From the NCBI GenBank assembly GCA_965178125.1, contig OZ237743.1, forward strand, positions 372,001 to 436,000: a DNA stretch of 64,000 bases, read 5' to 3'. The position numbers and the translations under genes are program-made. This document shows positions 1 to 64,000 of the stretch, piece after piece. This DNA is from Bilabrum cf. latius (taxonomy: Eukaryota). Every line of letters starts with the position of its first letter. Position 1 is the stretch's first letter. The notes under the pieces were generated by a model. The model was not told the origin of the DNA. It made no database searches and saw only the letters and a program-made list of their open reading frames with translations.

Positions 1-427
1 CTGGCTTGTTTCGGCGCACGTAAATAGGCCTTTCCTATTCTTGTAGGTGCCTTGCCAATTCGTTAAATTCATTTCCGTTGTCTATTTCTAGCCTCACGGT
101 GGGTTGCTAGACATTTCCCCGCATGAATATCTAGAGAGCTTTTTCATAGGTTTCTTTCTGGGTTTTCTTCAATAGCGGTTCTGCGTCTATTAATTTGGTG
201 TGTAAATCCACAGCAGTTAAAAGGTATTTATATCCTTGGTCGTTCGGCAATTGGAGTAAATCCATCTGAACGACTGCGTTTGGCTGCGGGACGTTCACCT
301 TGGGTCTGTTCTTGCCCTTGGGTTTCTTTGGGCGTTTCATTAAATTGCGGATTCTAGAGTCCTAGGGTATGTGAACCCCTTGGAGAACATATTGGAGAAC
401 ATTCGGGTATTCTTTCAGGATTTCCAT
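1..427 (-). CDS. Retroviral-type (rve, DDE) integrase, N-terminal part; runs off the window
   Basis: With TAG=Gln reads MEILKEY...MKRPKKP...QMDLLQLP..GYKYLLTAVD...LEIDNGNEF, colinear with the B integrase (QADLLFLP..GFKYVLSYVD..LKIDDGTEF). In-frame TAGs include 362 and 131. Confidence 0.85.
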
Positions 428-11732: not shown

Positions 11733-11757
11733 TTTATATTATCTAACTTGATATAAT

Positions 11758-15790: not shown

Positions 15791-15845
15791 ATATAAAGCT
15801 TTAGAATAATTTTTATGAATTGCTCCCCTAGATATTAAACCCTAT

Positions 15846-17993: not shown

Positions 17994-18026
17994 ATAATTA
18001 AATTATGGAAATAGACTATAATTTAA

Positions 18027-42195: not shown

Positions 42196-43356
42196 GAACT
42201 TATACTACAGATCAGATTTGTTCCTTCAACCACACCCATTGGCTCATGTTTACGGCTGCTGCCGTCCCTTCTGGTTGGCAGCTACCAAAAAGAAACGTCC
42301 TTGCCCACGGTCTCGCGGACCCACTGGGCTTCACCCTGAACGACTGGTTCTTCACCAGTCCACCTGAATGCTATACCAGGTATTCATCTGACACTACGAA
42401 TGTACACACCACTTTCTCAATGCATGTCGACTGGCCTCGTCGCTTCAGGGCTTCTCGTTCCCGTTTAAGGTCCGTGTGCGCCGCACCCTGCATCGCCAGC
42501 TCGACACTATCCTCTCAGCTTACACGTACAGGTCATGGCTGACCTTCCATTCGTCCCGTCTACCCGCCCGCCTATTGGCATCTTCTGCGCGCTGCTGGCC
42601 ATGCAGCCCGCTGCCGCTTGCGTAGCCCTCGTGCCTGGCACCTGAAGCCCCTCTCTCCCGTTGTGTCCTCCCCTTGATACAACAGTCGTCGGCTGTGCTG
42701 GTGTCCCCTCGTGTTCCTCTTTGCCTCACCGGCGCCCACCTTGACTTCCGGAATCATCTCTGGTCTCCATTGCTTCAATCCTGATGTCCTAGTGCATATA
42801 CCAGCGCTTCTGCCGCGTAGCACCCGACTAGGTCGTAATTGAGCACGATTCATGCACACAACCAGAGAGTTGGAGATTTGTAGGTGTGGCCAACATGGTC
42901 TCTGAGATTGAGGTCTCGCGTTGGGCGTAGGACCCGCTCGGGGGGCAGGCACAGGTGCGGCGAAGCGAAGTAGCCAAGGGGCGAGCAGTGCAGGGAGGGT
43001 CGGCAAGGGTCGATAACCAGTGGGGATACCAGACGGGGCGGACATTTGGGTGATAGGGAGGATGCAATGGAGAGACACAGATCGAGCAGATTGAAGTGGA
43101 GCGTGTGGATGAGCGGTGGTCTGTCCTAACATGGTCCGGATCCAGAATGGCTCCAGATGGGATCCGATCGCCCGACCAAGCGCAGATTAAGGAAGTTGAG
43201 AAGTCACATTCAGACTCAAGCGTTGATTTAAGCTGCGTGCTATGCGGGCGCTAAGCGGCAATTTCCCGGAGTTCTTGCTCAACTGTCTCTTGCTAGAACC
43301 ATGGATCCAAGTGAGGTTTAGTAGAAGCAAAGGAATAATCGTACAGCCTTCACGGG

Positions 43357-46300
43357 TTAGGTCGGTCCAACCCCAGCCGGCGGCAGTTTGATGAGTGGGT
43401 CACCGAACCTCGGTCTGCCAGGCACCTCGGTGCTAGTCTGCCACAGTATCTTGATCGCAGTGTCATCGTGTTCAGATACATGCACCCGGATGTACATGGT
43501 GTCAGACACAGGCGACTTCACGAACCACCGCGCCTAGCCATGTGACGTCTTGCATGATCTGTACTTGGACATTGGCAGGCCAGTGGCATCTTCCAATGCT
43601 GCCCAGTGGGCCTGAATTGCAAAGGAAACTGGCCAAGCAGAAGGATCAGTGATACTGGAGCACTGAGGAATCTGCACGTTGATTGAAGCAAACCACCCTT
43701 TCTGCATTCCATCCAGCACCCACGGGCAGTCGTCGTATAGCTCAACGACAGCTGTGAGCTTCGACGCATGAGGTCTGGCTAGCCTGCCAGTGGTCGCAGT
43801 GTAGCAGAGCAAGACGGACACGGTTGTGAATGCTTTTGAACGAAGGCCTGCCGCATTGCACTTCGCCATGCTATTATCCAGAGCCAACGCTGCATTCACA
43901 CTGTGCGCTCGGCTGCCCGCTTCGGCACGAGGAGGTCCGCCTGCTGGACTCCTCAGAGCTGCACGGGCACGACGACCCGTCTGTACAGCCTGAAACATGC
44001 TGTAGCTGAGTTCAATGGCAACAAGCACATTGTGGTCCCGTATGTCTAGCAGCCGTTGGCCAGTGCTACGGGTGGGGGTGTCTGCCAACCTAGGCAGATG
44101 CTCGTCTCCTGGCTGTTCCCTGTCTTTGTGACGGAACTGAGTCTGCAGCTGCAGATGAAAGCCCCGAACTAGCGGGGTATCAGCACCAACACGGACTATC
44201 GCTGCCTTCGGCGCCGTGCCCCTCTTCAGATACATGCGAAGAATTGGTACTGCATCTTGACATCTACTCCCGCCCGCACCGGCGATCTCTTCAAAGCAGC
44301 GGCAATGACAAGTCTTGTATAACGGATGGCAGGCTTGCTGTCCCGTGGCGCGACCACCTGTGATTCGACCACCTGGTGGGCAATGGGAGCATGTCTAAGG
44401 CAACAAGGCGCCACCAGGGAGTCTCCATTGAGCCATTCGATCAACTTCGCCAAGAATCATCTTCTACAAGCCTGTTTGTCGGAGCCTTTCTGAAGCCGGA
44501 GTAGCATCATTCTTTTCCTTTGGAGCGATTGGCCCGTCCAATACAGCATCCAGAGCGTTTGCATCAAGCAAGCCTCGTATTTTGCTTCCGCGAACTCTGA
44601 TAGTCTACATGGCAGATGCCACGATGGTCAGAGCACGCGCAACCTTCGGGGCTGCAAACGAAGTTCCAGCACTGGAATCTCGTTGCCGCACGATGCTTAA
44701 CTCTTCTTGGTCGCATAATCCGCACCAGGCGCAGCGTGGCCCGGGCTGAGGCTACAAAGCAAGCTATGGGATTCCTTCGCCCGACGCAAGAATGTCGACT
44801 CGGTCCCCCCAGTTCGAGAAGTCAGACATAGGAATCCTTGCACGCGCGGCTGGAGGGTGCCCAAGAGCCACCACAGAGCCCACGCATATGGAAAATCTAG
44901 AGTGGCATGGGAGCCACACGCTCTCGCTTGGCCGACCAGGCTCTCGAGGGGTCATCCACGCGCCCCCTCTAAGCCTAATGCCGTCATTACCGGCGGCAGC
45001 AGTTGCTACGAACCCAAGACGCCGTAAGTGACCGAAAAATCTATCCACCTCTTTGATCGCTAGACCATGAGACTGCACTTGCTCGACTATGGAGATCTAC
45101 ACTACCCCAAGCAGGGACTCCTCTCTGTATGCGGACCCACGAGCGGCCCTGGTGACAGCCCGAATCCTCTGAGCCATCCTCTCGATCATTGCCAAGCCCC
45201 ATCCAATAAAAGATGCGCGCCGCTCAGGAGCTGGTGGCCATAGTCTACTCCAGCACGATACAGGTCCAGATGCAGCCGGTAGCTCCAACTGATGGCCACC
45301 GGCAGCCTGGGACCACCCTTTGCTGAGTATCGCGATTGGAACCACGATGGACTGAGTACCCCTCGCTGCTTCTGCTGCCACCATGGTGCCGTGCGTGTCA
45401 GTGATAGTGTGGGGCATGTACGCCTTGTTCTCTCGGCCAGCCGTGTTCCAGAGTCGTCCCTCAACATCTGGCTCCCTAATAGCTGCACCTCGTGCTACTC
45501 GACTCGTGGACCCTGGCTCCACGTGACCGCCCGCAATCGCGAAGATCTCTTCCTCCAGTCCAGTGAAGTCTCGGTTCATACGGAATTCATCGTAGGAGTA
45601 CACGACCGCCATATCCATTACAAAGACGACCTGGTTCTAGCCTAGTCCACGAAGAGAGAAGTCATCACCACCAGCGAGATTCGAGGCACCACCAGCACCA
45701 GCACCAGCACCAGCACCAGCACCAGCACCAGCACCAGCTGTACCACCAGCTGCGGCAGCAGCCTCAGAGCCCAGGCCTGGCCCAGCACTGGCAGTACCAC
45801 GATCACGTCCATAGGGTCCACTCCCATGGTAGAAAGGGTTGTTCACCGACTAGGCAATCGTGGCATCGGTGGCTCTAGTGCCATCACGACCACGGCTCGC
45901 TGCAGCAGCACCACCGGAAGCAGCGCCCCTCCTTGCACTAGATCCAGCACTACCCCTAGCTGCACCCTATTCCCCCTATTCACCCTCAGTGATTGCAGTA
46001 CAAGCCAATGATCCAACTGGATTATGCACGCCCTTAAGTACAGGAACTTGTCCCGCCGTAGATAATCCCGCGGTCTGCAGCAGCACTGTCCCTTCCGCGC
46101 CTCCTTCAGCCAGAAGAGGCGTTGAGTTCGGTCCTGACTGCGTGCTCTCCCTATCAGAGTTGCCGTGCAGCTGCGGCTCTGATACAGTGCCATTTGTACT
46201 CTCGGCCCCAACGGAGCAGTCGCAGCCAGAGCACGACTCCTCGCTGCCGCGCAGACCTGCCAGCTTCACGGGGTGGTCAGGGTAGTGCGCCCGCACCAGC

Positions 46301-47451
46301 CCGCTCTTCACGATGAGTACCTGCACCGTGGATCCCACACACGCTGCCATGCCGATGGACGACGGCTGTGGGATGAAGGCCCCGCTGGACATGCTGGCCT
46401 TGCCCAGCTGCTGGATGCCGCGCAGCACCTCTATCACAGCGCCAAGGTCAGCTGCAGCCGGCTTGGGGGACGCGAGCTGGTAGGCGAGCTTGTGCCATGC
46501 GGTGTGGGCGAAGCTCCGGGGAGCTCCATACTGGTCGTTGCGATCCGGCCCGGGCGCGTAGCCGTTGATGTCGAGGTGCTGGATGTACTGCAGCCCGCCG
46601 TCCTGGGTCTCTGTGCCTCGGGCCAGTCGGTCGAGGTGGGCGGCGGCAGTTGCGAGGGCGGTCCTCTTGGCCTCTGCTGCCACGAGGCCCCACACCATCT
46701 CGGTGTCCAGGTGGCGGCTGCTGCTTGTCGCGAATGCCGAGGACTGCAGAGCGGCCTGCACCTGGCACAGGGGCTTGAGGACAGGGGCGGCGTTGCCCGG
46801 CAGGCTGGTCATGGCTGCGAGCTTGCGGGCGCATCCAGCCGCGAAGCTCTGCAGGCCGAGCAGGTGAGCGGATGCACCGCTCGAGGTGGCGGCGCCGTCA
46901 GTGTGCTTGATGCCGATGATGCCAGGAGCACCCGCGTGCTGCAGCTCATGCAGCGCTTCGATCAGCCCGCTCGCGGCGTCGTGCATGGCCTTGCCGACCT
47001 CTCTCGGGTCCGTGTCCGTGACGAAGTCGACGAAGCGCTCCGCCGACAGCTCCTGTCCTTGATCCATCCAGTACATCATGTGCTTGCATTGATCATGCGC
47101 AGGCTGGGAGTCGGGCGCTGGAGGCGGATCGTGCTTGGATTTCCCCATTGTGAGAGGCTGCTGATTGTGGGTTCGCGCAGCGTTGGGGCCCGCATCGTCT
47201 GCGATGAGAGCGAAGTCGGCGCAAACATACGATGTATTACTTCATATGATCAGCGAGCTAGCAAAGGAAGCCAATAATCTCTCACTGGCGTCTGACGGCA
47301 TTGCGTCGAGCTTGGGATCAATAACCGACGGAGACTTCTTGAGCTCGGTTGTCCGAGTCCTGCGGCGCACTCGGTGGGCTCTCGATGGCGAGTCACCCAG
47401 AGCTAATGGCAACAGCACTGTGAGCAGACAAAGCGATGCCAGCGTGCGCAT
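43357..47451 (-). CDS. Secreted subtilisin-like (S8) peptidase, copy 2 (intron 47199-47285)
   Basis: VMDMAV, HGTMVA, AAGN, GTSFAAP; continuous frame with TAG=Gln; ends TAA. Confidence 0.85.
45689..45737 (+). repeat. (CACCAG)n Gly-Ala linker repeat in S8 copy 2
   Basis: About 8 units, upstream of the catalytic domain. Confidence 0.9.
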
Positions 47452-49256: not shown

Positions 49257-50867
49257 ATGGTGCACTATATGATACAAGAATAGCGCATACCGGATGCCTA
49301 TCGCAGCCCGTACAGAAGCATCACCTCAATGGTGAGGAGCCAAGCAAGTTTCGCTGGTATCATCGCGCATCGCGTCTCGTCTCATACGCGGAGTAATAGT
49401 AAGTCTTGTACATGATAGTATTATATCAGCATGTATTTACTCAAGTCTCTGCAGGTTTCATCTGACGGCATGCACGAGAGCTACAGGGTAGGCAGGAACG
49501 ATTTTGCTCCCGAATGCACGTCGTTTTGGCATTTCCTGTGGGCGATCAGGCAGGGGTACTCCAGCGCCACAATGCCTTCTGGATCGGGCATGGCAGGCTT
49601 CAAGCAGCTGCTGGCACTGCTGCCCTCGGATGGCATCCGGTTGAAGTCGCTGCAGCTGGTTGACGAGACGATCGATGTTCCGACAGCCAGGTTGCTTTGC
49701 GAGATGGTATGTTTGGACGTGGAGGGTCATGGCTTGTCTTGCTTGCATCTGAAGGACTGCATGTGGAAGCCAGGCGCCATGGCAGCACTGGCTCCGTCGA
49801 TGCTGCACTCGGGGAGGTCGAATCGTCTGGATGCACTCCTCTTGCAGAGCACTACTGGCGAGCAATCGGTGAAAGGAGCCCCTCAGGATCTGTTCGAGTC
49901 GCTCGGGTAGGTGCTAGGAGACTCGCGGTGCAGCTTGTATGCGCTGAGTCTGGTGGGCATGCTCGGGTGGGACTCTTGGTCTGATACCACTGAAGGGCCA
50001 GCCTATGTTGGCCTGTATCGGCGGAATGCCCCGATAGCGAAGGGCATGCTGAGCAACAGAAGCATTCGGTATTTGTCGACTGGGGACTGCGTGGTGAACA
50101 CAGAGCAGCTGGTCGCGTGGGCCGATGCTCTGGCCAAGCATCGCTGGTTACGGCAACTGCTGATTTCCTTCCTGCCAAACTCGCCCCAAGAATTTGTCGC
50201 TTTCGGGGGTTCTGTAGCTAGGATTGTGCGCGAGAGCGTTAGCATCAGGCACATGATGCTATTTTACGACATTGAGCAATATTGGAGGCCTGAACTGCCA
50301 CCATTGGACCTGTTGCGGGCTGCAGTGAGGCAGAACAGGGCGCTGCTGTCGATGTCGATTGGATGGAATGGCAGTGAGTATCACAGAAGGCTTCAGTAGT
50401 TCAATCGTCAGCATAACATGAATTTGGAGGCGGTGGTGGCCAATCCCCGCATGGTGTTCTACGACTGGTGCACGTTAATCACTACCTACAAGAATGAGAA
50501 TGTCGAGCCAGTGATGTTGCCCCGGCTCCAGCAGTACCAATCCAGGCAGTCCAGGCTGTGGGCCTTGGTACAGCATAGGACAGCTGCGCAGGCTCACCGG
50601 GATGCGAGGCTAGTGTGGCGAGCTGCAGCAGAGGGCAGGCCTCTAGAGCTCGCGAAGCGACTGCGGCTCGGGGTGATGGCAGGTGGGGCAGAACGGAAAG
50701 GGCTCGTGTCAGGCAGATTATTAAACGCGACGCAAGCAGCGGAGGCAGGTGGGCACATGGAATGCGCTCTGCTGGTGCGCCGGTCAGTAGCGCGGGAGCT
50801 GAACCGACGGGCAGTGTATTTTGGCAAGTTGGGATGCGTGCCAGGGTGTTCGTGCCTGGTGCTTTGA
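49257..50867 (+). CDS. RNI-like LRR/ankyrin-like protein, copy b (5' structure uncertain; intron ending 49456)
   Basis: Paralog of copies a and c; joined across TAGs at 49908 and 50397. Confidence 0.65.
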
Positions 50868-51281: not shown

Positions 51282-54200
51282 TCACGAGCTTTCAGGGACT
51301 TTAACACTGGTTTGCCAGACAAGCTTGCTCGGCAGGGACCAGGTGAAGTACCCACTCGGGGGACGCACGTGGATGTACATCTTGTCAGTCACAGGCGACT
51401 TCACGAACCACCGCGCCCTCTCTTCTGAAACCTTGCATGACCTATACTTGGACATCGGCGTCCCGCGCAAGCCAGGCGCATCCTCCAGCGGTGCCCAGTG
51501 AGCCTGAAATGAGAAGGTGACAGGCCAGGCAGCGGGATCAGCGATGAAGCTTGAGCAAGCAGGTATCTTCACGTTGATTGAAGCAAAGAAGCCTTTCTGC
51601 ACTCCATCCAGCACCCATGGGCAGTCGTCGTAGAGCTCCACCACGGCCTCAAAAGGACCGCCAACAGACAGAATAGCACTTGATGCGGGGTAGCAGAGCG
51701 AGACGGATACGGTGGTGAACGACTCTGTTCGAGAGTAAGCTGCATTGCATTGCACGTTGCCGCTTTGGTGCGGCTGCGCGGCTAATATGCTGTTCGGGTC
51801 GGCGCCATCGCGATCCCTATCTCCGTCCCCTCGAACAACTCCAGCAGCACCATCAGCACTAGCAGCACCACCTGCACCTTCAGTACTGGCAGTCGCCCCA
51901 GTAGCTGCACCATGAGCGACTCCACCAGAACTAGGAGCCCCGGCACCGAAACTCCCTTTTTCAGTGTGAGCAGGAGCAGGTGCTCCTTCAACGACGCCAC
52001 CACCGGTCTGCAAAGCTCGAAACATGTCGTAGCTAAGCTCAACGGCGACAAGCAAACCACCACTGTGTAGTCCTAGCACTCTCTAGGCGGTGATAGCTGA
52101 GGCAGAGGACGGGATCTAAGGCGTGTGCTCACCGTCCAATACGGCGACAACTCCAGTCTTTTCCAGCAAGTTAATGCGCAACTACGGGTGGCTACCCGGG
52201 TCATGCGAGCCATCGGTATCACCACGTCCGCCTCCAGTGACAGTGCTTGCACTCATTGCAACCGGCTCTAGCTGTATCTCAAGGCTCGGGCTGTTCTCTG
52301 CATCTCTACATTTTTTGGCTCGAAGTCGCTGAAAGCAGCCGCAGTGGCAAGTCTTGTACACGTTGTGACAGGCTTGCTATCCAGTGTCGCCATCAGACGC
52401 TGGACACTGCGAGCACTCCTACGGCAAAACTGCGTCAGCAGGGACACGCCACCGGTCCTGCTACTCCACTGCGCCAAGGATGATATTGGGATTGCCATCA
52501 ATGAGGGTTAGGCGGAGTCTCTCAGAAGCTGTCACCGTACGTGTAGCAGTAGGGTATGGCACTGGTAGAACCGCTTCCTCTAGTTCAGCATCTCGAGCGT
52601 TCGCATGAAGCAGGTGAATAGCCGGGCCACTGTCAGCTCGAAGGATTTGCAGGCCTGATGCCATGATTGTGAGGGCCCTGGCCACCTTTGGGGCTGCGTA
52701 TGAGGTTCCTCGGGACTGGCCTGTTCGAACTGCGACAGAGTATACGTCGTCCTCAACCGGATTTGGGTCAACACGCCCACCAGCACACCCGGGAGTAGGT
52801 GCACGTCCGTCGCTCTCCCGCGGGCATGTGCCGCTTTTTTCTAGTGCTATATCTGGAGTTGCTTCCTCATTCGCAAATATTGTCACTTCAGGGCCCCAGT
52901 TTGACATCCATGACATGCGAATTTCTCCGCGAGTGGTAGAGCGTGGATCGTACGCCTCAGCAGAACCGACACAAATGGTCGTGGACAAAACGCAAGGCGT
53001 TGTGACCCTCCCTTCCTCACGTGTCGCTCTTGGCGAGGCCGGAAGGGGGCTCCGAATGACTTGAAAGCCGTTGTTGCCTGCCGCAACAGACGCCACAAAA
53101 CCAAAGTCACGAAGTATATGCAGGGACCTGTCGTGCTCCTTGATCGCTGGGTCGCCAGCCTTTGTGTCGATCTCTACGGAGATTTGGACCACTCCAAGCA
53201 TGGACCCCTTTCTAAATGCGGACCCACGGGCGGCTTTGATGACGGCCTGAATGCGCTGTGCCATCCCCTCGACGACGGCCAAACCCCATCCGATAAATGT
53301 CTAGCGGCTGCCAGGCGGTGAGGAATCTGATGAGCCACACCGGGCTCCTACGTCAGGCTAATGGGGAAGAGTCAGCTGCATCTCGGTGCACTTTCCTATA
53401 GCATCCCACCTGTGACTGTCAATCTTGATCGGAACCACGATCGAATGGGTGCCTCTTGCTGCCTCGGTCGCCACCTTGGTCCCGTGGGTGTCTCTGATAT
53501 CATAGGGCATGTAGGCCTTGCCTTCGCGGCCAGGTACTGGCTTTGAGGATTCAGCAGGAACCGCATCTGGCTCCCTCATGGCTGCACCTCGTGCTACTCG
53601 ACTCGTGGACCCTGGCTCCACGTGACCGCCCGCAATCACGAAGATCTCTTCCTCCAGTCCAGTGAAGTCTCGGTTCAGCTGAAACTCCTCGTACGTGTAC
53701 ACGACCGCTTCGTCCAGCACAAAGACAACCTGGTACTGACTCATTGCGCTGACAACCTAGTCATCGATCTCACCTGCATCGGCAACATCGGTAGGATCCG
53801 TTTCGCCAGCATCGGCATCCTCACCGCCAGCAACAGCAGTAGCAGACGAAGCTGAAGCACCTGCATCAGCTGCTGCTGCAGCCGCTCCTCCAGCGCCAAC
53901 ATCGCTTGCAGCACGATCTCGTACTGGAGGATCGTCTAGGCGATAGAATGGGTTTACAATTGAGTACTCAGCTACGCCATCGCCTGCACCACTGCTTCGG
54001 TCGCCCGCTGAAGCAGCACCACCGGAGGCAGAACCTGTGCCTGCACCAGCATGACTGTCGGCTGAGGATGCTCCAGTCCCAGCCGAGCTGACAGGTGGCA
54101 CTGGCTTGTGCACGCCATCAAGCAATGGAACACTCCCAGCCTTTGATAGTTCTGAGGTCTGAACAAGCTCAACTCCAGTCACGCTGCTTTTGCCATTTGA

Positions 54201-55532
54201 AGAGACAGCTCGTGGTCTATGCTGCGACAAACTAGCTACGTCGTGCAGCTGCGAATGTGGCCGCACAGTTTCTACCGTACTAGCGGTTCTACCGGAGCAG
54301 TCACAGCCAGAGCACGACTCCTCGCTGCCGCGCAGACCTGCCAGCTTCACGGGGTGGTCAGGGTAGTGCGCCCGCACCAGCCCGCTCTTCACGATGAGTG
54401 CCTGCACCGTGGATCCCACACACGCTGCCATGCCGATGGACGACGGCTGCGGGATGAAGGCCCCGCTGGACATGCTGGCCTTGCCCAGCTGCTGGATGCC
54501 GCGCAGCACCTCTAGCACGGCGCCAAGGTCAGCTGCAGCCGGCTTGGGGGACGCGAGCTGGAAGGCGAGCTTGCGCCATGCGGTGTGGGCGAAGCTCCGG
54601 GGAGCTCCATGCTGGTCGTTGCGATCCGGTCCGGGCGCGTAGCCGTTGATGTCGAGGTGCTGGATGTACTGCAGCCCGCCGTCCTGGGTCTCTGTGCCTC
54701 GGGCCAGTCGGTCGAGGTGGGCGGCGGCAGTAGCGAGGGCGGTCCTCTTGGCCTCTGCTGCCACGAGGCCCCACACCGTCTCGGTGTCCGGGTGGCGGCT
54801 GCTGCTCGTCGCGAATGCCGAGGACTGCAGAACGGCCTGCACCTGGCACAGGGGCTTGAGGACAGGGGCGGCGTTGCCCGGCAGGCTGGTCATGGCAGCG
54901 AGCTTGCGGGCGCATCCAGCCGCGAAGCTCTGCAGGCCGAGCAGGTGAGCGGATGCACCGCTCGAGGTGGCGGCGCCGTCCGTGTGCTTGATGCCGTCGG
55001 CATCAGGATGATCCTTGTGCTGCAGCTCATGCAGCGCTTCGATCAGCCCGCTCGCGGCGTCGTGCATGGCTTTGCCGACCTCTCTCGGGTCCGTGTCCGT
55101 GACGAAGTCGACGAAGCGCTCCGCCGACAGCTCCTGTCCTTGATCCATCCAGTACATCATGTGCTTGCATTGATCATGCGCAGGCTGGGAGTCGGGCGCT
55201 GGAGGCGGATCGTGCTTGGATTTCCCCTTTGTGAGAGGCTGCTGATTGTGGGTTCCCGCGGCGTTGGGGCCCGCATCGTCTGCGATGAGAGCGAAGTCGG
55301 CACAAGCATACGATGTATTACTTCGTATGATCAGCGAGCTAGCAAAGGAGGCCAATGATCTCTCACTGGTGTCTGACGGCATTGCGTCGAGCTTGGGATC
55401 AATAACCGACGGAGACTTCTTGAGCTCGGTTGTCCGAGTCCTGCGGCGCACTCGGTGGGCTCTCGATGGTGAGTCACCCAGAGCTAATGGCAACAGCACT
55501 GTGAGCAGACAAAGCGATGCCAGCGTGCGCAT
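51282..55532 (-). CDS. Secreted subtilisin-like (S8) peptidase, copy 3 (intron 55280-55366)
   Basis: VLDEAV, HGTKVA, AAGN, GTSYAAP; fragments share one frame; ends TGA. Confidence 0.85.
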
Positions 55533-56154
55533 GGTAGCTGGAAATGAGTGGTTCTACCGGTCGCATGCGTGATGCGTAGCGACCAACTCGGAATATTGCA
55601 CCTTGACCAGACGCCGCGGCCGGGCCGAAGCAGAAGCCCGCGGCGCCATCTGCCGTAGCAGTCTTGTCTGCAGTGCCTTGTTGACATAATTGTACCTCTT
55701 TAGGGGCTTCCTTTCTCCGTCCCTCATCCTTACGGTGCTTTCAACCGCTGGCAATCCGGTCCTGCACCATATCTCCTCTATCTCCTTTTGCTCTCCCCTC
55801 AACTTCCGCTCATCAACCACAAGAGTTGATCATGCCGACAAGCATGTTCTCCGCCATCTCAGCACCTGACAACGTGCATGGTACTTATTCCATGCACTCT
55901 CCAGAGTGTCCAGGAATCCACTCAGTTCCTGCCGCCCCCTCCTTGATCCTCTGCACTACCTACCTCATCCTGGGAATTGTTGCTCCCTTGGATAACTCAG
56001 TCAGCTCTAACTTCCAGTGTTTCTCGTCCCGTGGGGATCGTCCATCCACCTCCTGAAACCATCTCCACGATGCAAACGATTTGATTCTCCTTCTCCACCG
56101 GAGGCACCGAAATCTTTACATTTCTTGCCGCCGCTATCTGCAGGCTTTGCTGGC

Positions 56155-57773
56155 ATGGTCGACTTCATTATACAAGAATGGCCAAGATCTTATACATATG
56201 AGAGCCCGTACAGAAGCATCACCTCGATCGTGAGGCGGTTCGCTGTCTCAAGACATCTTGCTCATTTTACCCGAGAGGAGCCCGCTGCACCGCATGTCTG
56301 TTGAAAGTCAAGTTCCTATCTAAAACTAGAGTGCGCCTTGATTTGTCGCAGTTTTCATCTGACGGCATGCACGAGAGCCGTAGGGTAGGCAGGAACGATT
56401 TTGCTCCCGAGTGCGGATCGCTCCAGCAGTTGCTGGAGGCCATCAGGCAGGGGTACTCCAGCGCCACAATGCCTTCCGGATCGGGCATGGCAGGCTTGAA
56501 GCAGCTGCTAGCGCTGCTGCCTTCGGATGGCATCCGGTTGAAGTCGCTGCGGCTGGTTGACGAGACGATCGATGTTCCGACAGCCAGGTTGCTTTGCGAG
56601 ATGGTATGTTTGGACGTGGAGGGCCATGGGTTGTCTTGCTTGCATCTGAAGGACTGCATGTGGAAGCCAGGCGCCATGGCAGCACTGGCTCCGTCGATGC
56701 TGCACTCGGGAAGGTCGAATCGTCTGGAAGCACTCCTATTGCAGAGCACTTCTGGCGAGCAATCGGTGAAAGCAGCCCCTCAGGATCTGTTCGAGTCGCT
56801 CGGGTAGGTGCTAGGAGACTGGCGCTGCAGCTTGTATGCGCTGAGCCTGGTGGGCATGCTCGGATGGAATCACCGATATGGTCCGGTTCAAGGTGTGGAC
56901 TGGACTTGCATGTATCGGCGCAATGCCTCGGTGGCCAGGGGCATGCTTAGAAACACAAGCATTCGGTATTTGTCGACTGGGGACTGCATAGTTGACACAG
57001 AGCAGCTGGTCGCGTGGGCCGATGCTCTGGCCAAGCATCGCTGGTTGCGGCAGCTTCTTGTGTCGTTTTACCCCGTGTCGCGTGAAGCCCTCATTGCGGT
57101 CGGTGAACCGGCGGCAAAGATCGTGCGTGAGAGCGTGAGCATCAGGCACCTGATGCTGTTCTATGACATGTGTGAAAGATGGTTGTCGGTGCCGCCTCCG
57201 TTGGACCTGCTACGAGCTGCCATCAGGCAGAACAGAGCGCTGCTATCGATCTCCATCGGGACTGATGGAGGAGAGTACAGCGGTAATGAGGATGAACTTG
57301 ATGTGGAGCACGACAAGAATCTTGATGCCGTGGTGGCCAATCCCCGGATCGTGTTCTACGACTGGTGCACCATAAATATGACGCACTTTAATGACAGCGT
57401 GGAAGTAGTCATGGTCCCTCGATTATAGCAGTACCAATCCAGACAGTCCAGGCTGTGGGCCCTGGTACAGCATAGGACCGCTGCGCAGGCTCACCGGGAT
57501 GCGAGGCTAGTGTGGCGAGCTGCAGCGGAGGGCAGGCCCCTAGAGTTGGCGAAGCGACTGAGGCTGGGGGTGATGGCAGGTGGAGCTGAACAAGAGATGC
57601 TAGTTTCAGGTAGGCGGCTAAATGCGGTGCAAGCAGCGGAGGCAGGGGAGCACAGTGAGTGCGCTCTGCTAGTGCGCAGGTCAGTCGCACGAGAGTTGAA
57701 CCGACGTGCGATTCGTTTTGCCAACGATGACACATCTGAAGAAGTATCCTCATGCAGCTGCATGTTGCTCTGA
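56155..57773 (+). CDS. RNI-like LRR/ankyrin-like protein, copy c
   Basis: Near-identical to copy a. Confidence 0.65.
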
Positions 57774-58839
57774 GAACTTAGACTACAGATCAGATTTGTT
57801 CCTTCAATCATACCCATTGGCTCATGTTTACGGCTGCTGCCGTCCCTTCTGGTTGGCAGCTACCAAAAAGAAAATATCCTTGCCCACGGTCTCGCGGACC
57901 CACTGGGCTTCACCCTGAACGGCTGGTTCTTCACCAGTCCACCTGAATGCTATACCCGGTATTCATCTGACACTACGAATGTACACACCACTTTCTCAAT
58001 GCATGTCGACTGGCCTCGTCGCTTCAGGGCTTCTCGTTCCCGTGTACTGCCCTAAGGTCCGTGTGCGCCGCACCCTGCATCGCCAGCTCGACACTATCCT
58101 CTCAGCTTACACGTACAGGTCATGGCTGACCTTCTATTCGTCCCGTCTACCCGCCCGCCTTTTGGCATCTTCTGCGCGCTGCTGGCCATGCAGCCCGCCG
58201 CCGCTTGCGTAGCCCTCGTGCCTGGCACCTGAAGCCCCTCTCTCCCGTTGTGTCCTCCCCTTGACACAACAGTCGTCGGCTGTGCTGGTGTCCCCTCGTG
58301 TTCCTCTTTGCCTCACCGCCGCCCACCTTGACTTCCGGAATCATCTCTGGTCTCCATCGCTTCAATCCTGATGTCCTAGTGCATATACCAGCGCTTCTGC
58401 CGGGGGGGGACAACAGGTGGTGGTAGGTACACCAAGCGTTTAGGACGAGGGCTACGCTACGCTCGCCCCTCCTTTAAAGGCATATTTAGCAACTCAAGTG
58501 TTTCCCCTATAAACCTAAATGATTTCACAGGGGGTTCCCCAAGAACCCCTATAGAACCCCTCTATGTACCCATTTTCAGATATAAAATTTACTCCTACGA
58601 AGTAGGGGTAAATTGAAGAATTCTAATATTTAACCCCCTTATAAACTCTAACAGCAAAGACAGAGATGTTTTAGTAAAGTAGGAAAAAATGAAGAAATTA
58701 ACCAAGTGTCCAAAATATCTCTGTGTTTGCTGTAGGAACGGAAGGATGAATTCCCAAGAGACCAAGAGACCAACCGAGGATTTCCCCAAGAGAACAAGGT
58801 ATTTTATCAAGAGACCGAGGTATGTTCCCAAGCGACAAA

Positions 58840-59620
58840 CCGATAAACCGACCGATGAACCGACCGATGAACCGACCAAGGATTTCCCAAGGATTTCCCA
58901 AGGATTTCCCAAGGATTTCCCAAGGATTTCCCAAGGATTTCCCAAGCGACTAAATTGTTCTCCGAAGCAACCAAACCGATTACCCAAGAGATGATACATT
59001 ATAAGGAAAACGAAAACGTATTTTAAGTCCCTTTGGAAAAGTCCCCCAAGATGCTCGGGCTTTGCCCTCCGCTCTTTTGATATCTTTTTCAAAGATTAAA
59101 ATTGAGAGATTTTACAGGTCAATTTTAAGAGACTTAGAAAGAATAAATATATTTTCCAATTAAAATTAAATGTTGTAATTCCTATGATGCCACCATAAAA
59201 ATTAAAAGGAAAACGAAAACGTATTTTAAGTCCCTTTCGAAAAGTCCCCAAAAAACTTGTCAATTTTACAGGTCAATTATAAGAGACTTAGAAAAAATAA
59301 ATTAAGTTCCCTATTAAAATTAAATGTTGTAATTCCTATGATGCCACCATAAAAATTAAAAGGAAAATAAAAAACAAATTATAATTGTTTTCCAATTAAA
59401 AACACAAAAATTGATTGAAAAATTTTGACAATATAGGATACAAAGAAATATTAAAATTAATTTTCCAAGATGCTCGGGCTTTGCCCTCCGCTCTTTTGAT
59501 ATCTTTTTCAAAGATTAAAAATAAATGTTGTAATTCCTATGATGCCACCATAAAAATTAAAAGGAAAATAAAAAACAAATTATAGAATATTAAAATTAAT
59601 TTTCCAAGGATTTCCCAAGA
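58840..59620. repeat. Repetitive terminal region (probable TIR) of element C
   Basis: (GATTTCCCAAG)x6 at ~58880-58946; ACCGATGAACCG repeats; ~45-55-bp direct repeats near 59165/59320/59522 and 59047/59466. Confidence 0.8.
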
Positions 59621-59801
59621 GATGATAATTTAAGCCATTCTATATCACTATAGTAAATGAACCCATTTTTAAAGGAGTTGATGATAGAGCATATTGTCAA
59701 GCAAATTAATCCACGTATTTGGAAAAAATTACACGAAAAACTAAAGGAATACAAGAAGCTCGGGCTTTGATATAAGTAGAAGACTATACTATAAAGTACT
59801 T

Positions 59802-60086
59802 ATGAAGCCACATACCTACGATTTTGAAAAGGTTGTTGAAAATTTTCAATTTAAAGCACCCTCAAGACGCAAGAATAAGAAGTATGATGTTTTTGACGAA
59901 AATGATGAATATATTACATCGTTTGGTGATAGGCGGTATTAGCAATTTTACGATAGAATAGGGTATTACAGCCATTTAAATCATTTAGATACGGACCGCC
60001 AATTTAGATACTTCAAACGACACGGTATCGAAGTAAAACCAAGAACCCCAAAGTTCTTCTCACATTTTTACCTTTGGAGTTCATAA
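59802..60086 (+). CDS. Small conserved viral protein (KKY...SFGDRRYQ...RH...LW)
   Basis: 94 aa with one in-frame TAG; homolog of 12825-13163. Confidence 0.7.
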
Positions 60087-60617
60087 ATGACACGTCAATA
60101 AATACACTAATTCATCAGGATTTAATGTATGTTTCTTACAAACCTTATCCACCCACTTTTTATACTAATCAGCGTTTTTTCCCCTATTCCAAAGACGAAC
60201 TATACAATGTCTCCCGCAGGTTGCTATATCCATTCCATCCGCCTAAAACTAATATGGGTTATAGTCAATCTTATACGGAGAATGATACATTAAATATATT
60301 AACTCAGGGTCTTCATAAAAACGTTTCCGCACGCTTTCACTCATTGTGTGCTATTGCCTATCAGGACGAATTCCATAACTGTCAAAGAAGTATATTGTTT
60401 TATTACGCTTAAATAAGCACACCCAGTGTCCAGAATTTATTTCTTCTTGGTATAGAATGATACAACAATTACAACGACTAAATAATCCATCAATACTATT
60501 GTACTATCCTAATTCTGTATATGGAACGATGTTTACCGACGTAGGAAGAAACCCCTTAATATTTGGTGGAGTTTGGAGGAGAACACGAATATCACTATCG
60601 CTAAGAGCATAATCCAT
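60081..60617 (-). CDS. Virion maturation cysteine protease (178 aa, TAG=Gln)
   Basis: GHWVCL...FDSYG...YQFQ...TCGRH; absent from the standard-code ORF track. Confidence 0.9.
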
Positions 60618-60807
60618 AGATTTATTATAGAATGATATATTGGGGGAGATAAAAGCATCTCTTAACCACTATTTAAGCGTAGAAGTATTTCTACAAAATC
60701 CGTTTTGGAATTTGTGGATAGCATAAAAGACAATCATTCAAAATAAGTTTTCAACAAAAAGACAAAACACTTTAGAAAAAAAAAAAACATATAGTAAATA
60801 CACTAAA

Positions 60808-61710
60808 ATGGCTCATTTTTCTTGGAAGGAAACTACAAAATCAACACCCATCGCATATGACACTCACGGAAAACGTATTTTATACACGGCGGAAAACACA
60901 GACAACCAATTTGGAGATGATAGTATGTCATTTTAGGATTTTCAAGTATCATCTCTTACAGGGAACAGATTTCCGCAGAGGAAAATGGATTTATTAGCAC
61001 GACACTTAATCAAACAGGTCGAACCCCTAGACGAAGACATCAAATATTTGTATGAAAAAGCATAGGAAAAGAAACATAAAGAGATTACATTAAAATAGGG
61101 TGAATTCCAATCACTACCAAATCCAAACGGAAGAGAGGTCATTTTTATCACCGCACCATCAGGCGCGGGTAAGTCTACTTGGGTTTCCAAATATGCTAAG
61201 AATTATCATAGAATGTTTCCGAACAGGAGAATTATTTTATTTTCTCGCGTATAGTAGGATAAAGTCTTAGATGAAGTGAAAGGACTGAAAAGGATTATTT
61301 TAAATGAGGAACTGGTGGTGAACCCGATTGATATTCATTAGGAATTAAGGGACGCCTTAGTAATCTTGGATGATATTGATACAATCAAAGATAAAAAATT
61401 AAGGGAAGCCCTCAATCATTTACAGGATGAAATATTATAGGTTGGAAGACATAGCAATACTTCTGTATTAATCACAAGTCATTTAAGTACCAACTATAAA
61501 AGTACCCGTATTATTCTTGCGGAAAGTACAAAATTCGTTATTTTTCCGTAGTGTTCATCCGCACATTCTCTAAGGTATTTGTTAAAGAATTATATAGGAC
61601 TTGAGAAACAAGAAATCTCTAAAGTCTTAAAAATGCCTTCCAGGTGGGTCTGTGTCCACAGGAATTACCCGAGGTATTTAATTGGAGAAAGGTAGGCTTA
61701 CCTTATGTAA
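60808..61710 (+). CDS. Genome-packaging ATPase (300 aa, TAG=Gln)
   Basis: TAPSGAGKST, LVILDDID, VGRHSN; several in-frame TAGs; ends TAA. Confidence 0.9.
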
Positions 61711-61739
61711 TTTTGGTCAAACTTTTTATAAAAGTTTCT

Positions 61740-61976
61740 TTAAATAATATTCTATTCTCGTATATACCGACTTGCTTGAGGTAAACTCATACCAGTCTAC
61801 TACATCACCATTTTTACAAGTTTATTGCGACGTTTCATTTTCTCAGAAACTTTTCGTTTGGGCTTTAAACCTTTTCCAACTTTAATATGATGGTTTTTAA
61901 CTCTATTTAAAGCGTCTTGTTCTTTCTATAGCGCGAGTTGTTTGGTTCTCTATATAATCCACTTATCAATATCCAT
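61740..61976 (-). CDS. Small basic protein (78 aa), putative core/DNA-binding
   Basis: GKG...RRNKLVKMVMQQTGMSLPQASRYIRE when TAG=Gln. Confidence 0.6.
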
Positions 61977-62041
61977 TATACTATACACAAACACTTTATT
62001 TTTTATTTTTTGGTCAAGCTTTTTATAAAAGCTTATAGTAA

Positions 62042-63223
62042 ATGAAAACTGCTAAAGTGAATGCTCTTATTCAGCAAGCCCTAGAGAGGGAACTTGACAA
62101 TGCTAAAATGTTAGATTTACAGGCAAGGGACGACGTAGATTTAGAAACAGAATATAGTGATTTTATAAGGAAAAGGGCAAAAATTGAACGATTAAAAGAA
62201 AGTGGAAGGTATGGAACTCCAGCGTAGAGAAAATAGGCAGACCAAAGCAACGAGGAAATCATATCTAAGTCAATATCTGGTATAATGAAAGGTATTATTG
62301 AGGGTAAAAATGTAAGTCCAGCAGTGAAAGCATTGAAGGATTTTGTTGGTAATATCAATATGTCTCCACAAATGAAGCAACAACTAGCCCGTCAATACGT
62401 AAATATTGAGAGATTTCAAAGGAAAGGCTACGAAGGACTGCAGAGAGTTCCAGCTGAAGACAGAAAACAACTCTTAGAATTAGGGAAAGTTATATAGGAG
62501 GCATCCGGACAACGAATACCGTAGGGAATGTTGGGAATTGATTAGTAGCCAACATCTTTACAAACACCTGCTCGAACAACAAGAAGAAACACGTTTTCCG
62601 CTCCAACACAAGTACAGCTTCCAGAAAAGGGTTCGATTGCGTATAAATAGTTATTGGAAAGAGCCAGAGAAAGAATACAACAAGACAGACCCTTAACTGA
62701 AAAACAACGAATAGCGTGGGATTTAGAATAGGGAAAGAACTTCTCACAAAGAACATCACAGGGACAGACAAATATGTTTTAGCATTTTCCAGAGGGTTCA
62801 AGTAGTAATGCGTCAAAAACATCAAAAGACTTAGATGCCATATTAGCCGCAGCGAGCAATGAAAGACCACTACCGCAAGGAAGCACTCCGGGGGCGTGGG
62901 ACCCAGAAACTGGTGAGTACTATGATATGCCGAGTAGGATAGAAATTGAGCAGGGAATTGGAAAACGTGCTACTAGACCTGTGTAGCGATTTACGGGGTT
63001 TAGTCCGCCCTATGGAATGTAGTAGCCTGATTTAGAAGACCCACCATCACGCGCAATGACTGTAGAAGAAAGTGGAAAACCAAAAAAGGGGAAAGGATTA
63101 CGAGGTGGAAAAAGGATTATCTATGATACAGCAATGAATGTAGCCAAGAAAGTAAAAGGAGCCGATAAAGATATTCATCATTAGGTTGCTATGGAACTAT
63201 TACATCTTTTAGGAAAAGATTGA
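62042..63223 (+). CDS. Hypothetical virophage protein (393 aa, more than 10 in-frame TAG)
   Basis: No TAA/TGA over 393 codons of AT-rich DNA; GKGLRGG motif near the C-terminus. Confidence 0.75.
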
Positions 63224-63288
63224 CCAAAACCTCTTATTTACATCTTTTGGCAACCTGATAAAAATTATTTCTGTGGATATACTATAAA

Positions 63289-63780
63289 ATGTCAGTTTCA
63301 AATCTTCTATCTAAGAACAGTCTAGACCTTATGTCTCAAACTATTACGTGTAATGTTGTGAGTAGCGACGCAATTAAAGTGTCCGCAATTACTAACTCTA
63401 CGGGAGCAGTCATAGGCAATCCAAGTATTGAATTCAAAGACGGAGAGCCTTATATGGAGTGGGGTGAAACTGTTCTACGGTTTGGAAAAAACGGAGCGTC
63501 TGCTGGTTGTCAGTTCAGTATGAGCGAAGAAGGAGAAAGATGCGATATTTCACTAGTTGGTTCATTCAAGACTTCTCAAGAGGGTGTTGTTGGGCTGAGT
63601 GAGGTTGCTGGAGCTACATTGGCTGACGCTTCTACCCCTATTAATACGTCAGCAGAGCGAAAGTTCAAGGGCGCTTTAGTGTATAATGGAAGCGACAACG
63701 ATGTCTATGTGGCGATTGGCAGTTCTTCTACATCTAGTTGGAAATCCTTAGTGTCAGGTTCACTTATTACACCATCTTAA
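63289..63780 (+). CDS. Hypothetical virion/fiber-like protein
   Basis: 163 aa, starts MSVSNLL, beta/Ser-Gly-rich. Confidence 0.55.
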   Translation: MSVSNLLSKNSLDLMSQTITCNVVSSDAIKVSAITNSTGAVIGNPSIEFKDGEPYMEWGETVLRFGKNGASAGCQFSMSEEGERCDISLVGSFKTSQEGVVGLSEVAGATLADASTPINTSAERKFKGALVYNGSDNDVYVAIGSSSTSSWKSLVSGSLITPS

Positions 63781-63836
63781 TTATACTTTAGAAAAGTAAT
63801 CAAACCCACCCCATAATTATAAACGTCTATAGTAAA

Positions 63837-64000
63837 ATGAGTTCTCCAGACCGATTTTACATTACCGCAAACATACGAAATAACGAAGATACTTTCCAAC
63901 CAGCGACCTATAGCGAAACCCGCAAGTAGCCATTATTAGATAAGGATGTTGGTGATTATACGATGTCAGTATTCCGGTTTTCCATAAGCACCAATTCAAT
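63837..64000 (+). CDS. Minor capsid (penton) protein, N-terminal part
   Basis: FYITANIRN...YSETRKQPLLD...DYTMSVFRF aligns with B penton YVDLELYN...PIVD...YKLSVVRF. Confidence 0.75.

What the first reader, a model, noticed from the sequence alone, without database searches (positions are those of the whole stretch)
58402..64000. Virophage whose core genes are recoded to the host's UAG=Gln code
The ATPase, protease, penton and other genes of element C (and the integrase of A) are intact only with TAG=Gln. No frameshifts or internal TAA/TGA were seen, which argues for adaptation rather than decay. Inference: a eukaryotic dsDNA virus lineage committed to a non-standard code, invisible to standard gene calling and restricted in host range. 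Its helper giant virus should also tolerate or use this code.
Basis: partly seen in the sequence, partly recalled or inferred. Interest (0 to 1): 0.9.

Follow-up and report, generated by a model that had tools for sequence, protein, structure and literature searches.

The report
Virophage that spells glutamine with TAG
A small virus of giant viruses, inserted in a microbial eukaryote that reads the stop codon TAG as glutamine, uses TAG as its commonest glutamine codon, which ties it to hosts with this unusual code.

Summary
From 58403 to the window's end lies a low-GC insertion. Its genes (Sputnik V9-like protease, packaging ATPase, start of a penton gene, four others) are open only if TAG is read as a residue. 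In 1260 codons there are 34 in-frame TAG, 0 TAA and 0 TGA.

One TAG sits at a glutamine that is invariant in 24 of 24 protease homologues. Two more match Gln in the closest full-length ATPase relative. The GC-rich host reads TAG the same way: 85 TAG in ten long ORFs, exchanging with CAG/CAA between paralogues.

Other copies in public runs differ mostly by synonymous changes, 14 to 4 in the ATPase. That points to selection, not decay. None of 135 environmental virophage loci has an in-frame TAG in core genes.

A second, Sputnik-like virophage in the same window has no TAG in 3739 codons. It also has a different motif before its genes.

There is precedent: integrated viruses of Streblomastix use their host's TAA/TAG=Gln code (PMC10120064). 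So this is a new member of a known kind. The rest of the element, its helper virus and its activity remain untested.

The parts
58403..59656 (.). Left terminal non-coding region of element C. It begins with a G run and holds 11-nt tandem repeats (58876-58952), 12-nt repeats (58836-58882) and about 110-nt and 56-nt direct repeats.
   Evidence: The host flank ends at 58402. Logan contigs start at 58403/58404. The stretch 58588-58733 is 71-76% alike, inverted, to 736-887 next to the integrase at the window start.
59657..59773 (+). Possible 38-aa ORF directly behind a TATAGTAAA motif.
   Evidence: Read from the sequence; motif. No homologue was sought.
59802..60086 (+). 94-aa ORF with a DUF5754 domain, 1 in-frame TAG, TAA stop.
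   Evidence: Pfam PF19058, 27.6 bits against a cut-off of 27.4. Codons.
60081..60617 (-). Clan CE cysteine protease, Sputnik V9-like. It is 178 aa from Met41 of the 218-aa ORF that reaches 60737. There are 5 TAG in this part and the stop is TGA. TAG codon 165 encodes the invariant Gln, 9 residues before the invariant Cys174.
   Evidence: 26 homologues. Alignment and TAG columns. Model pLDDT 83.7. Best viral fold match is Sputnik V9 (E 5e-17, TM 0.73/0.90). Adenain, Ulp1, poxvirus I7L and ASFV S273R appear in the PDB search.
60808..61710 (+). FtsK/HerA-type packaging ATPase, 300 aa, 9 in-frame TAG, TAA stop.
   Evidence: 2976 homologues at E<=1e-3. It is 57% identical over its full length to P0178 and 36% identical to the ATPase of the Sputnik-like virophage B in the same window. 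Walker A is GAGKS.
61740..61994 (-). Small ORF (84 aa from GTG, 78 aa from ATG at 61976), 5 in-frame TAG, function unknown.
   Evidence: Listed differences in other copies are 8 synonymous to 1 non-synonymous.
62042..63223 (+). 393-aa Gln-rich ORF, 13 in-frame TAG, TGA stop, function unknown.
   Evidence: The only homologue is a 97% identical, full-length 393-aa protein on a 12,842-base contig.
63289..63780 (+). 163-aa ORF, no TAG (only 3 Gln codons), TAA stop. Possibly a fibre-like protein.
   Evidence: The only lead is weak: feature matches to phage tail-like clusters at 0.90-0.92, with recognition below the tool's threshold.
63837..63998 (+). First 54 codons of the penton (minor capsid, V18/19-type) gene, 1 in-frame TAG. 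It runs off the window.
   Evidence: tblastn matches the N-termini of penton genes in L003 (E 3e-7 and 1e-5) and L039 (2e-5). A direct comparison with the penton of virophage B found nothing.
2..427 (-). N-terminal 142 codons of an rve integrase with 4 in-frame TAG. It belongs to a second, diverged C-type element whose end region is 439-about 1005.
   Evidence: Pfam rve. TAG places. TATAGTAAA lies directly before its ATG.
60790..60798 (+). One of 5 TATAGTAAA sites that lie 0-10 nt before start codons of C-type genes. The others are 427-435 (-), 59649-59657, 62034-62042 and 63828-63836. A promoter-like motif.
   Evidence: 6 matches in the window against 0.14 expected; none of 100 shuffles reached 6. 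Upstream regions are shown. The sixth match (1525-1533, -) lies inside a gene of virophage B.

Best explanation
Element C (58403 to beyond 64000) is the left part of an integrated Sputnik-type virophage. Its lineage has evolved for a long time in hosts that decode UAG as glutamine.

Shown:
- The host ribosome reads its TAG codons as Gln, so its genes are intact.
- TAG has drifted to become its commonest Gln codon, even at a catalytic-site Gln of the maturation protease.
- TAA and TGA end its genes, and TAG never does.
- The proteins are still under purifying selection among the many copies in the host genome.

Inferred, not shown:
- The element still forms particles with the help of a giant virus.
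- It cannot be expressed properly in standard-code hosts.
- Its helper virus must likewise avoid or tolerate TAG.
For: 1. TAG only. There are 34 TAG, 0 TAA and 0 TGA in frame in 1260 codons. The off-frames hold all three stops in similar numbers. If 29 in-frame nonsense codons were drawn with TAG at 1/3, the chance that all are TAG is about 1e-14.

2. Meaning.
- Protease TAG165 falls in a column that is Q in 24 of 24 homologues. TAG129 is Q in the closest homologue, and TAG163 is Q in 6 of 24.
- ATPase TAG211 and TAG296 are Q in the closest full-length relative, P0178.
- The fold is clan CE protease, with best match Sputnik V9.
- From my own knowledge of clan CE, a Gln a few residues before the catalytic Cys forms the oxyanion hole.

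3. Host code.
- Ten long host ORFs (11,410 codons) carry 85 TAG and no TAA or TGA.
- In paralogue pairs a host TAG faces TAG 12 times, CAG/CAA 9 times and ten other codons 12 times.

4. Long history under this code. TAG is 44% of Gln codons in C against 15% in the host. CAG, the only one-step source of TAG among Gln codons, is rare in C (11).

5. Selection. The ATPase and protease are full length. Listed differences in other copies are 14 synonymous to 4 non-synonymous in the ATPase (P about 4e-6 if 25% of changes were synonymous) and 8 to 1 in the small reverse ORF. A sister copy keeps the protease 100% and the 393-aa protein 97% identical and full length.

6. It is a virophage.
- The ATPase is 36% identical to that of the Sputnik-like virophage B.
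- Relatives L001, L003, L020, L021 and L024 carry Sputnik-type MCP and penton genes beside the ATPase and protease.
- A penton N-terminus lies at the window end.

7. It is unusual. There is no in-frame TAG in 77,620 codons of core-gene matches in 135 environmental loci. In the metagenome set, 50 of 53 ATPase matches have no in-frame stop.
Against: - At the 9 TAG columns of the ATPase, Q is not the commonest residue among 54 homologues; E, D, K, L/I and G dominate. A BLOSUM62 ranking over 15 TAG columns gives E 1.04, Q 0.88 and K 0.75. Most columns therefore do not separate Gln from Glu or Lys. The CAA/CAG columns behave the same way, so the call for Gln rests on a few columns and on the host paralogues.
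- The sister copy's ATPase product (P0028, 156 aa, 87% identical) looks scrambled by small frameshifts, including in the Walker A motif, and ends early. This may be decay or assembly error.
- Only 40 of 132 differences were listed by read laying. They come from several contigs and were pooled.
- No contig listed bridges 58402/58403.
- The MCP gene, the right end and any target-site duplication are outside the window.
- No tRNA gene is found in the window, so the decoding tRNA is unseen.
Confidence: 0.8

Rival explanations
1. C is no longer a virus. It is a resident, vertically inherited family of endogenous elements (domesticated or transposon-like) that multiplies within the host genome. On this view TAG codons are only synonymous drift under the host's code, and nothing can be said about host range or a helper virus.
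For: Every sequence seen is integrated or lies in host-genome runs. The copies are many and variable. A neighbouring virophage has been hit by a retrotransposon, so this region collects dead insertions. One sister copy has a scrambled ATPase.
Against: Purifying selection acts on a packaging ATPase and on a maturation protease with an intact active site, which only matters if particles are made. The base composition stays at 34-40% GC against about 60% in the host. TAG is three times more frequent among Gln codons than in the host. A gene-start motif is conserved between two diverged elements.
Confidence: 0.15
2. C is a dead standard-code virophage whose TAGs are nonsense mutations (CAG to TAG decay).
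For: Under the standard code every larger gene is broken. C-to-T changes are common.
Against: The in-frame counts are 34 TAG against 0 TAA and 0 TGA, and no frameshifts are seen. One TAG lies at an invariant Gln. Differences between copies are mostly synonymous. The host reads TAG as sense anyway. CAG is too rare in such AT-rich virophages to supply 34 TAG: virophage B has 23 CAG in 3739 codons.
Confidence: 0.02
3. TAG in C encodes another residue, such as Glu or Lys, or is read through only in certain contexts.
For: The BLOSUM ranking puts E slightly above Q. Several ATPase TAG columns are E- or D-rich.
Against: One column is invariant Q in 24 of 24 homologues. Two TAGs match Q in the closest ATPase relative. 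Host TAG exchanges with CAG/CAA 9 times, and with GAG and AAG once each. TAG ends none of the 6 visible C genes or the 15 B genes.
Confidence: 0.03

Closest known systems
Sputnik-type virophages (Sputnik V9 protease, packaging ATPase, V18/19 penton, V20 capsid protein)
   Same: The protease fold and sequence match (34% identity to V9, TM 0.73/0.90). The ATPase family matches. A penton N-terminus is present. Relatives show the same clustering of ATPase, protease, penton and MCP genes.
   Different: Core genes carry in-frame TAG read as Gln; none of the 135 environmental loci examined does. The MCP of C is not visible. Two extra ORFs (393 and 163 aa) lie between the ATPase and the penton gene.
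Integrated virus elements of Streblomastix strix that use the host's TAA/TAG=Gln table (Bellas et al. 2023, PMC10120064; passages read)
   Same: An integrated small dsDNA virus of a protist whose genes follow the host's reassigned stop codon. The authors read this as a sign of long association.
   Different: Those are Metamonada-group MCPs allied to Trichomonas elements, with both TAA and TAG reassigned. Here the element is a Sputnik-type virophage with TAG alone reassigned, and TAA and TGA still end genes. That paper's supplements were not readable, so other cases may be listed there.
Mavirus and endogenous mavirus-like elements of Cafeteria (recalled; PMC10945749 seen only in a search listing)
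   Same: Integrated virophages with an rve integrase and terminal repeats, present in many copies in the host genome.
   Different: They use the standard code. Here an rve integrase with in-frame TAG is seen only on the second C-type element. The right end of element C itself is unseen.
Giant-virus genomes that are called better with alternative codes (PMC13524828; passages read)
   Same: They suggest that large dsDNA viruses of protists can match hosts with reassigned stop codons, code 15 among those tested.
   Different: That evidence comes from gene-calling scores on metagenome bins and does not mention virophages (0 occurrences). Here residue-level evidence exists and the host code is visible beside the element.
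Stop-codon-recoded bacteriophages (recalled; PMC10607447 seen only in a search listing)
   Same: Viral genes carry in-frame TAG read as a residue.
   Different: From recall, the phage code differs from the host's and is thought to be supported by the phage's own tRNA and to time late genes. Here the code equals the host's and no tRNA gene is present in the window.

Membership tests
Virophage, Sputnik type | FtsK/HerA-type DNA-packaging ATPase | tested here: met
   2976 homologues. 36% identity, E 2e-43, to the ATPase beside Sputnik-type MCP and penton genes in the same window. Pfam gives only weak AAA hits below their cut-offs.
Virophage, Sputnik type | Clan CE cysteine maturation protease (V9-like) | tested here: met
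   Best viral fold match is Sputnik V9, E 5e-17. His104, Gln165 and Cys174 are invariant.
Virophage, Sputnik type | Penton (minor capsid) protein V18/19 | tested here: inconclusive
   Only 54 codons lie in the window. They match penton N-termini in L003 and L039 (E 3e-7 to 2e-5). There is no Pfam hit and no match to B's penton.
Virophage, Sputnik type | Double jelly-roll major capsid protein (V20-like) | not testable with these tools
   The gene would lie beyond base 64000. No whole genome is held, and the tool for fetching encoding contigs is marked closed in its description and was not called.
Virophage, Sputnik type | Replication depends on a giant virus | not testable with these tools
   This needs culture work. 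No giant-virus sequence is in the window.
Nuclear code with TAG=Gln only (as NCBI table 15) | In-frame TAG in conserved genes, aligned with Gln | tested here: met
   Protease column 165 is Q in 24 of 24 homologues. ATPase positions 211 and 296 are Q in P0178. Host TAG faces CAG/CAA 9 times.
Nuclear code with TAG=Gln only (as NCBI table 15) | TAG is not used as a terminator; TAA and TGA are | tested here: met
   The 6 visible gene ends of C and the 15 of B are all TAA or TGA. Host long ORFs end in TGA or TAA and hold no in-frame TAA or TGA.
Nuclear code with TAG=Gln only (as NCBI table 15) | tRNA-Gln with anticodon CUA and an altered release factor | not testable with these tools
   No tRNA gene is in the window and no genome is held.

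The most novel reading that the evidence does not exclude
The window holds two virophage lineages in one host genome that differ in two respects.

- The C type is committed to TAG=Gln and carries TATAGTAAA directly before its start codons.
- The B type has no TAG at all, neither as sense codon nor as stop, and carries TTATCTAA-like motifs upstream of its genes.

The boldest reading is that they serve two different helper giant viruses. One helper would be recoded to the host's code and locked to this host lineage. The other would be code-neutral and able to move between hosts with different codes. The genetic code would then act as a measurable host-range barrier inside a three-partner system of host, giant virus and virophage.
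Probability: 0.2. Interest if true: 0.8.

Novelty: new member of a known kind. Interest (0 to 1): 0.6.

Why it matters
It has long been argued, mostly without data for eukaryotic DNA viruses, that a reassigned stop codon can fence viruses in or out.

Here one stretch of genome shows three things side by side:
- a host that reads TAG as Gln;
- a virophage lineage that has gone fully over to this code;
- another virophage that uses no TAG at all.

That gives a concrete system for asking how fast a virus adapts to a host's code and whether commitment narrows host range. It also bears on whether the helper giant viruses are recoded too.

On the practical side, standard gene callers break every larger gene of such elements. 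Virophage and giant-virus surveys that assume the standard code will therefore miss them or call them degraded.

Tried and rejected
- **Whole genome.** The rest of the element and other copies could therefore not be fetched.
- **Close relatives in IMG/VR.** No pattern match for the ATPase, and none confirmed for P0027.
- **Metagenome scan.** Whether P0027 (229 aa, cut short at both ends against its relatives) is truncated by in-frame TAG stays open.
- **Other collections.** The phage collection gave no match to the ATPase. PDB sequence searches gave only chance WD40 or P-loop hits for the protease and ATPase and nothing for the integrase.
- **PHROGs.** Only weak hits.
- **Protease of B.** C's protease does not match the ORF at 9349-9957. 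B's protease is probably 11157-11732, which hits the same places in the loci as C's protease.
- **RNA.** No RNA holder was listed among the sequencing runs. The one run guessed to be RNA is probably DNA, and it covers only the host flank and the first 500 bases of the element.
- **Junction.** No contig listed bridges 58402/58403.
- **Depths.** Unitig depths are not copy numbers and were not used as such.
- **393-aa ORF.** Only its sister copy was found.
- **163-aa ORF.** The Atlas hits are below the tool's recognition threshold.
- **Literature.** Four searches found no paper on a Sputnik-type virophage with TAG=Gln. Supplements were closed.
Full report
**Layout of the window.** The window is about 60% GC with three low-GC islands: 1-2891, about 8762-19640, and 58403 to the end.

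The GC-rich part carries very long ORFs that are open only if TAG is a sense codon. Examples are 2536 aa with 18 TAG, 1506 aa with 10 and 1481 aa with 10. These ORFs are:
- retroelement proteins (RVT_1, RVT_3/RNase H, tyrosine recombinases);
- a subtilase-like family with three copies;
- another family with three copies.

**The host reads TAG as Gln.** Ten long host ORFs (11,410 codons) hold 85 TAG, 333 CAG, 140 CAA and no in-frame TAA or TGA. Their stops are TGA or TAA.

I aligned the paralogues and kept only places where at least 60% of the ten flanking residues agree. There a TAG in one copy faces TAG 12 times, CAG 7 times, CAA twice, and twelve other codons once each. TAG is therefore Gln in the host. 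In this window TAA and TGA remain stops, which matches NCBI table 15.

**The observation.** Under table 11 the region 58-64 kb has no ORF above 165 aa. With TAG=Q it gives a compact gene set:

| Coordinates | Strand | Product | In-frame TAG |
|---|---|---|---|
| 59802-60086 | + | 94 aa, DUF5754 just above its Pfam cut-off | 1 |
| 60081-60737 | - | protease, 218-aa ORF; likely start Met41, as in homologues and in P0001 | 6 (5 after Met41) |
| 60808-61710 | + | ATPase, 300 aa | 9 |
| 61740-61994 | - | 84 aa | 5 |
| 62042-63223 | + | 393 aa | 13 |
| 63289-63780 | + | 163 aa | 0 |
| 63837-end | + | ORF that runs off the window | 1 |

Together these are 1260 codons with 34 TAG, 0 TAA and 0 TGA. The two other frames of six of these genes hold TAG 53, TAA 62 and TGA 66. 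All six visible gene ends are TAA or TGA.

The left border is sharp. The flank 58001-58402 is 96% identical to 42422-42815, and the two diverge after '...CTGCCG'. Contigs of public runs begin at 58403 and 58404. The first 1.25 kb of the element is non-coding and full of short tandem and longer direct repeats.

**What the genes are.**
- *Protease.* It has 26 homologues at E<=1e-3 among 45 candidates. I aligned 24 of them plus the self-copy P0001 and left out P0014, a 130-aa fragment. The model (pLDDT 83.7) matches Sputnik V9 best among viral structures (E 5e-17, 34% identity). Among solved structures it matches adenain, Ulp1, poxvirus I7L and ASFV S273R. This is a clan CE protease.
- *ATPase.* It has 2976 homologues at E<=1e-3 and 907 at E<=1e-30. 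It is 36% identical to the ATPase of the neighbouring Sputnik-like virophage.
- *Relatives.* Those fetched from metagenomes (L001, L003, L020, L021, L024) carry Sputnik-type MCP and penton genes next to the ATPase and protease.
- *Penton.* The 54 codons at the window end match the N-termini of penton genes in L003 and L039.

Element C is therefore a Sputnik-type virophage, although its MCP is out of sight.

**What TAG means in C.** The strongest single datum is protease codon 165. This TAG lies in a column that is Q in 24 of 24 homologues, nine residues before the invariant Cys174. From my own knowledge of clan CE, this is the oxyanion-hole Gln.
- TAG129 is Q in the closest homologue, and TAG163 is Q in 6 of 24.
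- In the ATPase, TAG211 and TAG296 are Q in P0178, the closest full-length relative (57% identity, one 1-residue gap). At position 296 the wider family has Gly.

The remaining ATPase TAG columns are variable and rich in E, D and K. A BLOSUM62 ranking over 15 TAG columns gives E 1.04, Q 0.88 and K 0.75, with the hydrophobic and aromatic residues far below. Most columns therefore do not separate Gln from Glu or Lys. The CAA/CAG columns of the same gene look the same. The call for Gln rests on the invariant column, the two matches in the closest relative, and the host paralogues.

**Adaptation or decay.** Four lines point to adaptation:
1. Only TAG occurs in frame, and no frameshift is seen.
2. 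TAG is 44% of Gln codons in C (34 TAG, 32 CAA, 11 CAG) against 15% in the host. A recent standard-code arrival could not reach this by CAG-to-TAG changes, because such AT-rich virophages have few CAG. Virophage B has 23 CAG in 3739 codons.
3. Copies diverge mainly by synonymous changes (details below).
4. A sister copy on a 12,842-base contig keeps the protease 100% identical over 178 aa and the 393-aa protein 97% identical and full length.

For point 3, six runs of two coded organisms in two studies hold most of the element. It is broken into many short contigs 90-100% alike. Classifying the 40 listed differences (of 132) gave these counts:

| Gene | Synonymous | Non-synonymous |
|---|---|---|
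| ATPase | 14 | 4 |
| Small reverse ORF (61740-61994) | 8 | 1 |
| 94-aa ORF | 1 | 2 |
| 393-aa ORF | 2 | 3 |

For the ATPase, P is about 4e-6 if a quarter of changes were synonymous. These differences are pooled from several contigs, so this is a rough test.

Against this, the same sister contig gives an ATPase product of 156 aa. It is 87% identical but scrambled in short stretches, including the Walker A motif. That is either a decaying copy or indel errors in that assembly.

**How unusual it is.** I fetched 143 environmental loci, and 135 gave core-gene matches. In their 77,620 codons matching ATPase, protease, MCP or penton there is no in-frame TAG; four loci have one TAA each. In the metagenome set alone, 50 of 53 ATPase matches have no in-frame stop. 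HSPs tend to break at stops, so heavily recoded relatives could be under-counted. The two closest relatives (P0178, P0027) could not be fetched.

**The second virophage.** The stretch 2892-8761 is a DIRS/Ngaro-like retrotransposon with a 1506-aa ORF carrying an RNase H-type domain (RVT_3) and a tyrosine recombinase. It has split direct repeats that are 100% identical: 2892-3021 = 3224-3353 and 3050-3223 = 8588-8761. The ORF 2631-2891 continues in frame at 8762 and runs to 9316. So 1006-2891 plus 8762-about 19640 is one Sputnik-like virophage (MCP V20 and penton V18/19 by Pfam) cut by the retrotransposon.

Its 15 ORFs (3739 codons, 146 Gln codons) have no TAG at all. Their stops are 11 TAA, 4 TGA and 0 TAG. 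If a fifth of virophage genes end in TAG, as in the fetched ATPase genes, 0 of 15 has P of about 0.035. This virophage is therefore compatible with both codes and has not drifted into TAG use.

**The integrase fragment.** The rve integrase at 2-427 has 4 TAG in 142 codons (Fisher P about 2e-6 against B). It carries the C-type motif before its ATG. It is followed by a stretch that is 71-76% alike, inverted, to C's left end. I read it as the right end of a second, diverged C-type element abutting B.

**Gene-start motifs.** TATAGTAAA occurs 6 times in the window against 0.14 expected. Five of the six sites lie 0-10 bases before start codons of C-type genes, the integrase among them. Other C genes have near-variants. 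B genes instead show TTATCTAA-like motifs 10-25 bases upstream. From recall, these resemble the TCTA late-promoter motif reported for mavirus and its giant virus. The difference suggests, but does not show, different helpers or different expression classes.

**Literature.** In the passages I read of PMC10120064, the authors report that integrated viral elements of Streblomastix strix use the host's TAA/TAG=Gln table, and they take this as a sign of long association. In the passages I read of PMC13524828, giant-virus genome bins are reported to be called better with alternative codes, code 15 among those tested. Virophages are not mentioned there.

Searches for virophage with genetic code, stop codon, UAG, glutamine and related terms found no report of a Sputnik-type virophage with TAG=Gln. 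Supplements were closed, so lists of hosts in the first paper may hold further cases. From recall, Maverick-type elements of ciliates are also written in the ciliate code.

**Verdict.** The phenomenon has precedent, so I rate it a new member of a known kind. What adds interest is the side-by-side contrast with a TAG-free virophage in the same genome.

Noticed in passing
window 1006-2891 + 8762-about 19640: A Sputnik-like virophage (MCP 13211-15055, penton 11758-12828, ATPase 9985-10710) with no TAG in 3739 codons and no TAG stop in 15 genes. It is compatible with both the standard code and the host's code.
   Followed up: partly
window 2892-8761: A DIRS/Ngaro-like retrotransposon (1506-aa ORF with an RNase H-type RVT_3 hit, plus a tyrosine recombinase, both with in-frame TAG). 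Its split direct repeats are 100% identical. It is inserted inside a virophage gene whose frame continues from 2891 to 8762.
   Followed up: yes
window 427-435, 59649-59657, 60790-60798, 62034-62042, 63828-63836; upstream regions of B genes: C-type genes carry TATAGTAAA right before the ATG. B-type genes carry TTATCTAA-like motifs 10-25 nt upstream. These may be different promoters and so may point to different helper viruses.
   Followed up: partly
window 58403-58409, about 1015-1022, 19633-19643: Runs of 7-11 G (or C on the other strand) sit at or near the borders of all three virophage insertions. Their meaning is unknown.
   Followed up: no
window 61708-61710: The TAA stop of C's ATPase aligns with the last residue, Gln, of three relatives (P0178, P0029, P0030 end in ...LQ or ...IQ). 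This may be a CAA-to-TAA change that shortened the protein by one residue. TAA still ends the gene.
   Followed up: partly
P0028 / P0001 / P0227 (one 12,842-base contig): A sister copy of element C. Its protease is identical and its 393-aa protein is 97% identical, but its ATPase product is scrambled and truncated at 156 aa. This is either decay or assembly indels.
   Followed up: partly
window 20125-23895, 43357-47148, 51282-55727; 40600-42195, 49431-50867, 56367-57773: Two host gene families with three copies each: subtilase-like proteins with GA-repeat inserts, and a family of about 470-530 aa with no Pfam hit. All have in-frame TAG, which made them useful for reading the host code.
   Followed up: partly
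window 24801-32411 and 35424-39939: A 2536-aa LINE-like ORF (RVT_1) and a second DIRS-like pair (a 1088-aa ORF plus a 427-aa tyrosine recombinase). The region is dense in mobile elements.
   Followed up: no
run X7 (coded organism C), window 58403-58905: A third coded organism holds only the first 500 bases of the element's end (3 other letters, 15 gap letters), plus host-flank-like pieces. Related terminal sequences may exist in another host.
   Followed up: no
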